Positions 1 through 1,978 of a DNA stretch of 64,000 nt are shown in pieces; the first letter of the stretch is position 1; the number at the start of each line of letters is the position of its first letter. Made by a program: the position numbers and the translations under genes. Below the pieces are notes generated by a model that was given only the letters and a program-made list of their open reading frames with translations, made no database searches and was not told where the DNA came from. The DNA lies in NCBI GenBank assembly GCA_963717465.1, contig OY970340.1, forward strand, positions 480,001 through 544,000, in the 5' to 3' direction. The DNA comes from Candidatus Bathyarchaeota archaeon. GTDB taxonomy: Archaea > Thermoproteota > Bathyarchaeia > Bathyarchaeales > Bathycorpusculaceae.

Positions 1-1034
1 GGTTTTGCGTGTAAGTATTCGCCGCCTTCTATGTCGATGTTGCCTGTTAGCGCTGGTAGCATATATTTGGATCGCACATTACTCATGGAGTTCCTGCCTG
101 ATGATTCAATTGCGTAGCCGTATGGGAACGTGCATGGACGGTTTTTCACTATGAATCTGGCTGCTTCTCTAATCTTTTCAGCTGGAATCCAAGTTATTTC
201 CGCAGCCTTCTCAGGCGTATACTGCTTAACACGTTCCTTTAGCTTATCAAATCCAAAGGTCCATTTCTCCACAAACTCATGATCGTACAAATCCTCCTCG
301 ATGAGGACATTCATCATAGCCAGCATAAGAGCGGTATCAGTTCCAGGCCTAATCGCCAACCATAATTCAGAATTTCTAACAGTTTCAGTATAGCGTGGAT
401 CGACGCAGAGCATTTTCGCGCCACCCTCGACTGCTGCAACAAAGCCAGGCCATGAATATGTCCAAGATTCACTGGGATTCGTTCCAATCGCAAAGATACC
501 TTTGGTCTTACCAGGAATCATCATTGCATATGTTAATCCCACGCCATAGCCTAATCCTAAGGCTTGGTACGTGGGTCCAGCTCAGTGTGTCGCTGCAACA
601 GGCCCAAAGTTAGGGCTGCCCAATAACACATGGAAAGGCGCACAGCCAAGACCTAGGTTAGCAGATCGACCAGTGCCGCTAATGCCGCATACAGATTCGG
701 CGCCATACTTTGCTACAATTTCCTTTACTTTAGCAGCAATTTCCGAAATAGCTTGATCCCACGATATTATTTGCCACTTCCCTTCACCTCGTTTGCCAAT
801 ACGCTTCAACGGATACATGGGTCTGTCTCTATGGTAGATGTACTCTACAGAGTACTTCCACTTCTGACAATAAGGCCCAGGATTAAACGGACTTTCCCAA
901 TCAGGCTCAACTTTAGTGATTTTACCGTTCTCAACAGTCTCAAGCAATTGACATGATCCAGTACTACAGAAACCGCAAATACATCTATGCAATCCATCGT
1001 ATTTCTTCGGGTCTTCAATTTTAGTTTCACTCAT
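1..1034 (-). CDS. Mo/W-bis-PGD (DMSO reductase superfamily) oxidoreductase, acetylene-hydratase-like clade; 5' part only (runs off window), with in-frame TGA at codon 151 (582-584), candidate selenocysteine
   Basis: ATG at 1034 preceded by AGGAG. N-terminal Fe-S motif CGFCSTGSC...CQK and YPLKRIGKRGEGKWQIISWDQA. Manual translation past the TGA continues in the same frame without stops to base 1, giving IGTNPSES, CVDPRYTET, WLAIRPGTDTAL and LTGNIDIEGG, all typical of the family. Confidence 0.92.
538..575 (-). promoter_or_regulatory. Candidate bacterial-type SECIS hairpin immediately 3' of the in-frame UGA
   Basis: Minus-strand sequence CCCACG-TA-CCA-AGCC-T-TA-GGAT-TA-GGCT-A-TGG-CGTGGG. Pairings are CCCACG/CGTGGG, CCA/TGG, AGCC/GGCT and TA/TA with a bulged U. 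The apical loop GGAU starts at +25 after the UGA. Confidence 0.6.
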
Positions 1035-1115
1035 TTTTCTATCTCCTATTACTTTATGTCTTTGAAACAAGTTAATATTAAGGTCTGTTTAATATTTAAG
1101 GTTAAAATATGAGCC

Positions 1116-1134
1116 TGTTTCAGATTTTGAGACA
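1116..1134. promoter_or_regulatory. Imperfect palindrome TGTTTCA-N5-TGAGACA upstream of the TATA box of the Mo/W enzyme gene
   Basis: 6/7 inverted repeat. TATA-like TTAAATAT on the minus strand at about 1092-1099. Confidence 0.3.
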
Positions 1135-1372
1135 AAATAAGGCAAATCTGCTAATTTAGTTGCCACAGGTGCGGTTTTGACCCTATTTTTGATAAAAAAG
1201 TGCAAAGTCTAAAACTCAATTTAATAAAAGTAATAAGAATTGGAACAAATTTCCATGATGGAGAATTAAGAGGCCTGAATTATTTTCTTAAACGAAACTT
1301 TTTCAAGATTAAATAGTAACAAGTTCAGTAAGTTTTAGGTTTTCCAAATAGCAATAATGTTGTGTATCAATT

Positions 1373-1978
1373 TTAAGCGTCAACAGGCGTTATTTTCTTC
1401 GTAAATGTATTATTTTCTATGTGATTCACTGGTTTAGCCGATTGAAATATTGATCCCAAGTTTCGATATGAAAATGGTTTTGGCCACATTTTATCCGTGT
1501 GAAACATGAAGCTATGTACTTCAAGGGATGGTAATTTATGCAAAAGCGATAATTCTTTATCAACCATCTTTGAGAACTTTATAAAATCATCATAATCCTT
1601 GTGAGCAGTTACAGCGAACCATTGTGTTCCTGTCATGCCGCGATCTACGAGGAGGCACAGCAATTCGGGATGGCTGTGAGCCACTTCATCAGCTTCGCTA
1701 AATTGCATTGGTGTTACTATATCAGTAGTTGAAGCTAACGAAAGCACAACAACCTCTAGCCCAATTTTATAGAAATCAGGTACTGGAACGTATTCTTTTA
1801 TGTAGCCCTCTTGTTCAAGCTTCTTTTTTCTTCGAGACAAAGATGTGTGGCTTATTCCCAAACGTTTGGCAATTTCTCTATCGCTATTACCGCTTAATGC
1901 CATCAAAGTAAACAAAGTTTTTAGATTTTCTTGTTCCTTTCTCTCCAGTGCATTTCGTTTACTCAATGGTCTATTCAT
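1373..1978 (-). CDS. Lrp/AsnC-like winged-HTH transcriptional regulator
   Basis: SDREIAKRLGISHTSLSRRKKKLEQEGYIKEY..PDFYKIG HTH, followed by a RAM-like domain. Confidence 0.8.
   Translation of the reverse strand: MNRPLSKRNALERKEQENLKTLFTLMALSGNSDREIAKRLGISHTSLSRRKKKLEQEGYIKEYVPVPDFYKIGLEVVVLSLASTTDIVTPMQFSEADEVAHSHPELLCLLVDRGMTGTQWFAVTAHKDYDDFIKFSKMVDKELSLLHKLPSLEVHSFMFHTDKMWPKPFSYRNLGSIFQSAKPVNHIENNTFTKKITPVDA

What the first reader, a model, noticed from the sequence alone, without database searches (positions are those of the whole stretch)
538..584. Bacterial-style SECIS hairpin inside an archaeal coding sequence
Seen: 6 nt after the UGA a stem-loop forms (CCCACG/CGTGGG, CCA/TGG, AGCC/GGCT, bulged U, UA/UA, loop GGAU), with the first loop G at +25. 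Known: bacterial SECIS elements lie directly 3' of the UGA within the CDS and present a G at the start of a small apical loop (with a bulged U in E. coli fdhF). Characterised archaeal and eukaryotic SECIS elements lie in UTRs. Inference: either this archaeon recodes UGA with a bacterial-type SelB system, which would be unusual for Archaea, or the gene arrived by transfer with its SECIS.
Basis: partly seen in the sequence, partly recalled or inferred. Interest (0 to 1): 0.85.

Follow-up and report, generated by a model that had tools for sequence, protein, structure and literature searches.

The report
Selenocysteine hairpin inside an archaeal gene
An RNA hairpin sits six bases after a selenocysteine UGA codon inside an archaeal tungsten/molybdenum enzyme gene, which suggests that this archaeon marks such codons locally, as bacteria do, and not from the untranslated end of the message as known archaea do.

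Summary
The hairpin is real. UGA is at window 584-582 (minus strand), followed by a 6-nt spacer and a 38-nt stem-loop at 575-538.

The gene is an acetylene-hydratase-family enzyme, and the UGA stands where homologues carry the metal-ligand cysteine. Eleven paralogs in this genome keep both the UGA and a hairpin.

Evidence that the hairpin is selected:
- Only 3 of 3000 synonymous recodings give as good a hairpin at that position.
- None of 3750 Cys-codon controls beat it.
- Paralogs show compensatory changes.
- The stretch ranks first of 734 windows for synonymous-site conservation, by a small margin.

Independent support comes from hdrA-mvhD. All 5 UGA-bearing orthologs in the genus have a hairpin at the same spacing at both sites. 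At one site 0 of 25 Cys orthologs do, and at the other 3 of 25.

The machinery is archaeal (SepSecS, PSTK fused to a four-domain SelB). I found no SelA, no bacterial SelB wings and no UTR-type SECIS. All 80 outside relatives checked lack a UGA, so import together with a bacterial SECIS is unsupported.

Best reading: a local, in-gene recoding signal, new for Archaea but not yet tested at the bench. Earlier notes of this scan report the same pattern on other DNA of this genome.

The parts
1..1034 (-). 5' part (344 codons) of a 767-codon gene for an acetylene-hydratase-family W/Mo bis-pterin enzyme. It runs off the window start and ends at a TAG 1270 nt beyond it in the genome.
   Evidence: Pfam Molybdopterin 2.1e-20, Molybdop_Fe4S4 8.9e-08; PDB 2e7z E 7.8e-110 over residues 18-755
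582..584 (-). In-frame UGA, codon 151, read as selenocysteine. It aligns with the Cys of homologues at the metal-ligand position.
576..581 (-). 6-nt spacer GCUGGA between the UGA and the base of the hairpin
   Evidence: energy profile over spacers 0-15 has its minimum at spacer 6
538..575 (-). 38-nt stem-loop, -18.8 kcal/mol; the proposed in-gene Sec recoding element
570..575 (-). 5' arm of the outer stem, CCCACG (codons Pro CCC, Thr ACG; each is 15% of its codon family in this genome)
538..543 (-). 3' arm of the outer stem, CGUGGG (within GGC GUG GGA; GUG is 16% of Val codons)
560..567 (-). 5' arm of the inner stem, CCAAGCCU
544..552 (-). 3' arm of the inner stem, AGGCU-A(bulge, 547)-UGG
553..559 (-). 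Apical loop UAGGAUU, with GGA at +25 to +27 after the UGA

Best explanation
The stem-loop at 575-538 is a cis-acting recoding signal for the UGA at 584-582. It lets this archaeon insert selenocysteine at the metal-ligand position of an acetylene-hydratase-family W/Mo enzyme.

Inferred mechanism. When the UGA is in the ribosomal A site, a hairpin starting 6 nt further on sits intact at the mRNA entry. From there it could slow release-factor action. It could also present its apical loop to the Sec-specific elongation factor, here an archaeal four-domain SelB fused to PSTK, or to an unknown adaptor, and so bring Sec-tRNA(Sec) to the codon.

Shown: the UGA, the hairpin, their fixed spacing, signs of selection on the RNA, the archaeal type of the Sec machinery, and the lack of a detectable UTR SECIS.

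Inferred: that the hairpin is needed for Sec insertion, and what binds it.
For: (1) The UGA is a Sec codon.
- It aligns with Cys in internal and external homologues.
- All 11 TGA-bearing paralogs keep it.
- The genome has 2 tRNA-Sec genes, SepSecS at 400 bits, and two PSTK-SelB genes.

(2) The RNA looks selected.
- 3 of 3000 synonymous recodings reach the observed hairpin at +7. The diverged paralogs give 1 of 3000 (p1211), 3 of 3000 (p1134) and 7 of 3000 (p2055).
- 0 of 3750 Cys-codon controls beat it.
- The stem uses rare codons CCC, ACG and GUG in the ten closer copies. The most distant paralog instead has CCC AAC ... GUU.
- The best of 734 15-codon windows for identical synonymous codons among 7 paralogs starts 2 codons after Sec (0.774 against 0.573 overall).
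- 89% of 154 cells pair, against 23-47% when the partners are slid. 5 of 14 pairs change on both sides, which 3 of 500 shuffles reach.
- The paralog at 48% protein identity keeps a hairpin through CCAACG/CGUUGG, one base later.

(3) The same spacing appears in an unrelated gene. Both UGAs of hdrA-mvhD have their best hairpin at spacer 6 (-24.3 and -20.8).
- All 5 of 5 TGA orthologs in the genus keep it.
- Cys orthologs reach -13 kcal/mol or better at that position in 0 of 25 (site 212) and 3 of 25 (site 682).
- A sixth TGA ortholog, in another genus, also has both hairpins.

(4) Genome-wide, 214 of 115,355 TGAs have such a hairpin, and 20 of these lie in open context. Twelve of the 20 are ten paralogs of this gene plus the two hdrA UGAs.

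(5) No rival signal was found.
- The only shared 3' feature of 8 paralogs is a T-run 20-40 nt after the stop.
- There are no GAA_A-type pattern hits near 10 Sec genes.
- There is no Rfam SECIS match in 9 loci or in the whole genome.
Against: - On total folding energy, the window's own hairpin is only marginally better than codon-preserving recodings (124 of 2000), because the peptide itself is GC-rich.
- The synonymous-conservation peak is narrow in margin (0.774 against 0.770 and 0.761 for other windows), and gene conversion among paralogs could raise it.
- The paralogs, and the TGA-type hdrA orthologs, are each one lineage, so the counts overstate independence.
- One of 8 Sec sites examined (MtaA-like U203) has no good hairpin at +7 (-2.7; its best is -15.4 at spacer 15).
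- 3 of 25 Cys orthologs at hdrA site 682 also have a hairpin there.
- No TGA-bearing ortholog of this gene exists outside the genome in what I searched, so cross-species covariation could not be tested for this family.
- My GAA_A pattern has no positive control.
- There is no expression, protein or binding data.
Confidence: 0.65

Rival explanations
1. The hairpin is only an accessory stimulator, like the eukaryotic selenocysteine redefinition element (SRE) of selenoprotein N. It would slow termination at the UGA without being bound specifically, while a true SECIS that my searches missed lies elsewhere on the transcript.
For: Published reviews describe SREs as stem-loops in the coding region near UGA-Sec whose stem, loop and spacer matter, and which also promote read-through of other stop codons (passages of PMC8704476 and PMC6844570). 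The loops at the different Sec sites share little sequence (UAGGAUU, AAGUAUA, GUGCA, GGAA), which fits a generic structural effect. My GAA_A pattern was not validated on a known archaeal SECIS.
Against: Nothing conserved lies beyond the stop codon except a T-run, which looks like an archaeal terminator 20-40 nt downstream. There is no SECIS_1 match at E<=1 in the whole genome. None of the 13 genome-wide GAA_A pattern hits lies near 10 Sec genes. The 3' flanks of hdrA in five Sec genomes share no element.
Confidence: 0.2
2. The hairpin is a by-product of coding constraints. The peptide after the metal ligand (GPT...YGVG) is conserved for enzymatic reasons and happens to be self-complementary.
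For: Recodings of the peptide fold on average to -14.2 kcal/mol, and 124 of 2000 match the native total energy. P154, G164, V165 and G166 are invariant in the five-sequence protein alignment.
Against: Only 3 of 3000 recodings give the hairpin at +7. The stem uses rare codons in the ten closer copies. There are paired synonymous changes (Leu UUA to CUA together with Leu UUA to UUG) that keep a base pair. The same spacing occurs in hdrA-mvhD, where Cys orthologs with a similar peptide mostly lack the hairpin.
Confidence: 0.1
3. It is a true bacterial SECIS, either read by a bacterial-type SelB or imported with the gene from a bacterium.
For: Position, spacing to the loop (22 nt) and energy fit the loose published bacterial consensus (PMC13188914 figure legend). 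The closest outside relatives of the enzyme are mostly bacterial.
Against: No SelB wing domain or SelA was found, and SelB is of the archaeal four-domain type. 0 of 80 outside relatives have TGA. The G is at loop positions 3-4, not 1-2, in the favoured fold. No Rfam bacterial SECIS model matches. The Sec-type hdrA is 65-71% identical to the Cys-type hdrA of the same genus, so it is an archaeal gene.
Confidence: 0.03
4. The UGA is a genuine stop and the gene is split or dead.
For: Three of the eleven copies are visibly damaged elsewhere.
Against: Eight copies keep one uninterrupted 760-772-codon frame with a single TGA at the ligand position. Codon-usage scores favour the same frame on both sides. 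The Sec machinery is present.
Confidence: 0.02

Closest known systems
Bacterial SECIS (bSECIS), prototype E. coli fdhF; consensus as summarised in PMC13188914 (figure legend read)
   Same: It lies inside the coding sequence directly after the Sec-UGA. It is a single stem-loop with a small apical loop holding GG, 22 nt between the UGA and the loop, and an energy far below -7.5 kcal/mol.
   Different: The host is an archaeon with PSTK/SepSecS and a four-domain archaeal SelB that lacks the winged-helix domains which read bSECIS. The G is at loop positions 3-4 in the favoured fold. No bulged U is supported. No Rfam bacterial SECIS model matches.
Eukaryotic selenocysteine redefinition element (SRE) of SELENON/SEPN1
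   Same: It is a stem-loop in the coding region close to the UGA-Sec codon, and the stem, loop and spacer all matter (passages of PMC8704476 and PMC6844570). I recall a 6-nt spacer from Howard et al. 2005, but that paper was not held.
   Different: The SRE acts together with a 3'-UTR SECIS and SBP2. Here no UTR SECIS was found, and the hairpin accompanies 7 of 8 Sec codons examined.
Euryarchaeal SECIS (GAA_A type) of Methanococcales and the eukaryote-like SECIS of Asgard archaea
   Same: They serve the same archaeal Sec synthesis pathway (PSTK, SepSecS, aSelB).
   Different: Those elements lie in UTRs and have a GAA_A bulge or a GA quartet (PMC13188914 and PMC11227280 passages). This one is in the CDS, 6 nt from the UGA, and has neither motif.
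Acetylene hydratase (PDB 2e7z), for the protein
   Same: Full-length similarity (E 7.8e-110, residues 18-755). It has an N-terminal Fe4S4 domain, and the ligand residue is at the corresponding place.
   Different: The ligand here is encoded by UGA (Sec) instead of Cys. The gene is present in 11 copies, and the substrate is unknown.

Membership tests
Bacterial SECIS (consensus model, PMC13188914 Fig. 2 legend) | [quoted passage not shown] | tested here: met
   The hairpin starts 6 nt after the UGA.
Bacterial SECIS (consensus model, PMC13188914 Fig. 2 legend) | 3-9 nt apical loop and 4-16 bp upper stem | tested here: met
   7-nt loop; inner stem of 5+3 bp.
Bacterial SECIS (consensus model, PMC13188914 Fig. 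2 legend) | At least one G in the first two loop positions | tested here: not met
The favoured loop is UAGGAUU, with G at positions 3-4.
Bacterial SECIS (consensus model, PMC13188914 Fig. 2 legend) | 16-37 nt between the UGA and the apical loop; MFE <= -7.5 kcal/mol | tested here: met
   22 nt; -18.8 kcal/mol.
Bacterial SECIS (functional definition) | Read by bacterial SelB through C-terminal winged-helix domains | tested here: not met
   No SelB-wing_3 match in the genome, which is 88% complete. Both SelB genes are of the archaeal four-domain type.
Rfam SECIS families | Match to a curated covariance model | tested here: not met
   No SECIS match in the window at gathering score, in 400-700 at E<=10, in 9 paralog loci at E<=10, or for RF00031 in the whole genome at E<=1.
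Euryarchaeal SECIS (GAA_A type) | UTR location, GAA_A bulge, three S-S pairs in the upper stem | tested here: inconclusive
   My rough pattern gave no hit from -300 to +500 of 8 paralogs or near 10 Sec genes. The pattern was not validated on a known element.
Eukaryotic SRE | Coding-region stem-loop near the UGA that acts together with a 3'-UTR SECIS | tested here: inconclusive
   The stem-loop near the UGA is present. No UTR SECIS was found. Function is not testable here.
Selenoprotein gene | In-frame UGA aligned with Cys of homologues, in a genome with Sec machinery | tested here: met
   Cys in internal and external homologues. tRNA-Sec x2, SepSecS, PSTK and SelB are present.
Selenoprotein gene | Selenium actually incorporated at the site | not testable with these tools
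   Needs mass spectrometry or 75Se labelling.
Acetylene hydratase family (DMSO reductase superfamily) | Full-length similarity, with Fe4S4 and molybdopterin domains | tested here: met
   2e7z E 7.8e-110; Pfam PF04879 and PF00384.

The most novel reading that the evidence does not exclude
This archaeal lineage uses a third arrangement of the selenocysteine system. It has archaeal/eukaryal-type synthesis (PSTK, SepSecS) but a local, in-gene SECIS placed as in bacteria. On this reading, the place of the SECIS is not fixed by domain of life and has shifted, or been retained, independently. The duplicated tRNA-Sec and PSTK-SelB pair, one copy with degenerate GTPase motifs, may be part of that adaptation.
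Probability: 0.4. Interest if true: 0.9.

Novelty: new variant of a known kind. Interest (0 to 1): 0.78.

Why it matters
Reviews up to 2026 place archaeal SECIS elements in untranslated regions and reserve in-gene elements for bacteria (PMC13188914 and PMC11227280, passages read).

An archaeon that pairs archaeal Sec machinery with UGA-proximal hairpins would change three things.
- Selenoprotein prediction in archaeal genomes would have to change, because UTR-based searches would miss these genes.
- The unsolved question of what recognises the SECIS in Archaea would become testable with a short, defined RNA.
- It would bear on how the three SECIS systems evolved.

It also uncovers an 11-copy family of Sec-containing acetylene-hydratase-like enzymes that standard annotation would split at the UGA.

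Tried and rejected
- Rfam scans of the window, the hairpin region, 9 paralog loci and the genome (RF00031) gave no SECIS match.
- Searches for TGA-bearing orthologs of this enzyme outside the genome found none.
  - The scan of GTDB species genomes kept 80 loci of 586 relatives, all at 48% identity or less, and none had TGA.
  - The scan of JGI metagenome contigs kept 80 of 153, the best at 45%. I did not inspect the Sec column of these.
  - 60 relatives and 5 Sec-using or near genomes were also searched.
- A short-peptide tblastn was too weak to align the site and was replaced by the full query.
- Three codon-usage screens for further Sec genes were too noisy to give a clean list. I therefore relied on the sites confirmed by homology. 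The selenoproteome list is incomplete.
- The MtaA-like gene has no Pfam match and no homologue in 60 genus genomes, so it gave no comparative data.
- FlpD and hdrA searches in distant Sec-using genomes of the class found only Cys forms, except in genus g26.
- Sequencing runs: no RNA holder was listed.
- Laying contigs of four DNA runs showed many diverged copies in two sediment runs, but only the best-supported differences are printed. No conclusion could be drawn for 2036-2082 of L025.
- Howard et al. 2005 (PMC1142574) is not held, so the 6-nt SRE spacer is recalled, not read.
- The 3' flanks of hdrA in five Sec genomes share no element.

Full report
**The observation.** On the minus strand an ORF starts at window 1034 and runs off the window start. 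Read with TGA as Sec, it is one frame of 767 codons with a single TGA at codon 151 (window 584-582), and it ends at a TAG in the genome beyond the window. After the TGA come six bases (GCUGGA) and then a 38-nt stem-loop at 575-538.
- The outer stem is CCCACG/CGUGGG.
- Two bases are unpaired.
- The inner stem is CCAAGCCU/AGGCU-A-UGG, with a 7-nt loop UAGGAUU.

The apical refinement (bulged U, UA/UA, loop GGAU) costs 2.5 kcal/mol relative to the favoured fold, and its pairs have 2-3% predicted probability.

**Is it more than chance?**
- The 71-nt stretch folds to -19.9 kcal/mol, against -14.5 +/- 2.7 for dinucleotide shuffles. That is z -2.0, and 8 of 200 shuffles fold as well.
- I recoded the 17 codons after the UGA with synonymous codons drawn by genome usage. 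The native total energy is then only marginally low (z -1.64; 124 of 2000 as stable). The seven other intact paralogs give 10 to 142 of 2000. The Gly/Ala/Pro-rich peptide itself therefore favours structure.
- The picture changes when the score is a hairpin whose 5' end sits exactly at +7. Then 3 of 3000 recodings reach the native -18.8. The figures are 1, 3 and 7 of 3000 for three other paralogs.
- None of 3750 in-frame Cys codons in long ORFs of this genome beats it. The control mean is -1.4, the first percentile is -12.1, and the best control ties at about -18.8.

**What the gene is.** Pfam finds the Fe4S4 and molybdopterin domains. The closest solved structure is acetylene hydratase, 2e7z, with E 7.8e-110 over residues 18-755. 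The TGA aligns with Cys in a TGA-less paralog of the same genome and in the homologues of genome G054. In 63 of 80 relatives from other species it also aligns with a Cys codon, and 0 of 80 have TGA there.

**Paralogs.**
- The genome holds ten further copies at 74-82% DNA identity, plus one at 48% protein identity. All have TGA at the same site. Three of them are damaged elsewhere.
- All ten closer copies keep CCCACG...CGUGGG, using CCC, ACG and GUG. These make up 15%, 15% and 16% of their codon families.
- Among the 7 close intact copies, same-residue pairs use the identical codon at a fraction of 0.573 overall. The fraction is 0.746 in the 15 codons after Sec. The best of 734 windows (0.774) starts two codons after Sec, but other windows come close at 0.770 and 0.761.
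- On an 11-sequence alignment, 89.0% of 154 cells pair, against 22.7-47.4% with slid partners. Five of 14 pairs change on both sides, which 3 of 500 shuffles reach. The covariation score is 0.187 against 0.121, which 1 of 500 shuffles reach.
- One case is two synonymous Leu changes (UUA to CUA and UUA to UUG) that turn a U-A pair into C-G.
- The most distant paralog keeps a -16.2 hairpin with CCAACG/CGUUGG, one base later.

These copies share ancestry and may undergo gene conversion, so the counts are not independent.

**The organism and its machinery.** The 16S gene fits the archaeal model over its full length at 1474.8 bits. Earlier notes of this scan call the organism Bathyarchaeia, which I did not verify.

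Present in the genome:
- Two tRNA-Sec genes, drawn with a 4-bp T stem.
- SepSecS at 400 bits, next to one of the tRNA-Sec genes.
- Two genes in which PSTK (KTI12 family) is fused to SelB, of 732 and 730 residues. The SelB part aligns from end to end with archaeal SelB 4ac9 (E 2.4e-79) and carries aSelB_III.

Not found:
- The SelB-wing_3 domain.
- SelA above its cut-off.

The genome is rated 88% complete. A bacterial-type reader is therefore not supported.

**Is there a UTR SECIS instead?**
- The 3' flanks of 8 intact paralogs share only a T-rich run 20-40 nt after the stop, which looks like an archaeal terminator.
- A rough GAA_A-type pattern gives no hit from -300 to +500 of these genes. It gives 13 hits genome-wide, none near 10 Sec genes. 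This pattern has no positive control.
- Rfam finds no SECIS in 9 paralog loci at E<=10. RF00031 finds nothing in the genome at E<=1.

**Independent support from another gene.** The genome's hdrA-mvhD fusion (854 codons; FlpD domain 5e-47) has TGA at codons 212 and 682. Both sites have their most stable downstream hairpin at spacer 6, at -24.3 and -20.8.
- Thirty loci from 61 sampled genus genomes were examined. Five carry the TGA form (84-86% identity) and 25 the Cys form (67-71%).
- All 5 TGA forms have the hairpin at both sites (-24.3 to -25.9 and -20.8 to -20.9).
- Cys forms reach -13 at that position in 0 of 25 at site 212 and in 3 of 25 at site 682.
- A sixth TGA form, in another genus, also has both hairpins.
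- Strong SepSecS matches occur in G000 and three of those four other TGA-form genomes. The fourth is 56% complete. In the class as a whole, 9 of 301 sampled genomes have SepSecS.

The TGA forms are one clade, so each site counts as one evolutionary event.

**Exceptions and the genome-wide view.**
- Of 8 Sec sites profiled, 5 have their energy minimum at spacer 6.
- One site has -18.6 at spacer 6, with an extension that starts at spacer 0.
- One site has its minimum at spacer 7.
- One site (MtaA-like U203) has no hairpin at +7.
- Of 115,355 TGA triplets, 214 have a hairpin of at least a 5-bp base at +7 and -13 kcal/mol or better. Twenty of these have 40 or more open codons on both sides. Twelve of the 20 are ten paralogs of this gene and the two hdrA sites.

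**Origin.** The enzyme family was not found in 36 sampled genomes of the genus. It was also not found in the Sec-using relatives G061, G071, G077 and G009, or in the genus genome G021. Outside relatives are at most 48% identical, mostly bacterial, and lack the TGA. The Cys-to-Sec change and the hairpin therefore have no sampled donor, and import together with a SECIS is unsupported.

**Comparison with what is known.**
- The element fits the loose bacterial consensus in place, loop size, distance and energy. It does not fit in the position of the loop G, and it does not fit in the reader protein.
- It resembles the eukaryotic SRE in being a coding-region stem-loop close to the UGA. Here, though, no UTR SECIS accompanies it.
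- Two reviews, of 2024 and 2026, place archaeal SECIS elements in UTRs and do not mention Bathyarchaeia (passages found; full-text searches listed no paper describing in-gene archaeal SECIS elements).

**Verdict.** This is a real, probably selected hairpin at a fixed distance from a genuine Sec codon, and it is best read as a local recoding signal in an archaeon. Function and reader are inferred. Earlier notes of this scan describe the same pattern on other loci of this genome. I re-tested the hdrA and paralog claims myself.

Noticed in passing
outside the window: G000:C1 about 952742-954940 (+) and 2827366-2829555 (-); L012:670-2868, L013:1081-3273: There are two genes in which PSTK is fused to the N-terminus of an archaeal SelB (732 and 730 aa). 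The second has altered GTPase motifs (GHCKHGKT, EMPGN, SKID instead of GHVDHGKT, DLPGH, NKID) and lies next to the second tRNA-Sec gene. I saw no mention of a PSTK-SelB fusion in the passages of PMC11227280 searched for 'fusion' or 'fused' (0 occurrences).
   Followed up: partly
window about 1045-1140 (minus strand, upstream of the start at 1034) and the same place in paralogs: Several paralogs share an upstream block (a T-rich run, GTC.CAAAA..., then CTTAAATAT about 60 nt before the start). This is possibly a common promoter and regulator site for the family.
   Followed up: no
G000:C1 616633 (+), 2799584 (-), 132694-133145 (-): Three of the eleven Sec-type copies look damaged: one loses its frame after about 397 codons, one is truncated at 296 codons, and one is split. 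All still keep the TGA and the hairpin.
   Followed up: partly
L203/L234 (G000:C1:2822990-2824225, minus strand): A 412-codon gene with two in-frame TGAs has no Pfam match and no homologue in 60 genus genomes. One TGA has a +7 hairpin with loop GGAA. The other has none at +7, though a -15.4 hairpin starts at +16.
   Followed up: partly
relatives G061:C3, G071:C6, G077:C70, G299:C14: In relatives, SepSecS lies within about 1-3 kb of the TGA-type hdrA-mvhD (in G299, of a TGA-bearing FlpD gene). G077 and G000 also keep a Cys-type copy. Together with the patchy spread of SepSecS (9 of 301 in the class), this looks like a mobile 'Sec island'.
   Followed up: partly
apical loops of the Sec-site hairpins: GGA or GGGA stands at +24 to +28 after the UGA in most sites, and in one case out of the reading frame. 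It is absent in hdrA U212 and in paralog p1211. This was seen post hoc and not tested statistically.
   Followed up: no
window 1373-1978 (-): A 201-aa ORF with a helix-turn-helix-like N-terminus lies directly upstream of the enzyme gene. It is possibly its regulator. It was not searched.
   Followed up: no
L025 2082 (the TGA) in runs X2, X4: Contigs of two sediment metagenomes align at 80% or better across the hairpin and lose alignment just upstream of the TGA. This hints at further diverged copies in nature that keep the TGA and hairpin. The printed tables are too cut to count.
   Followed up: partly
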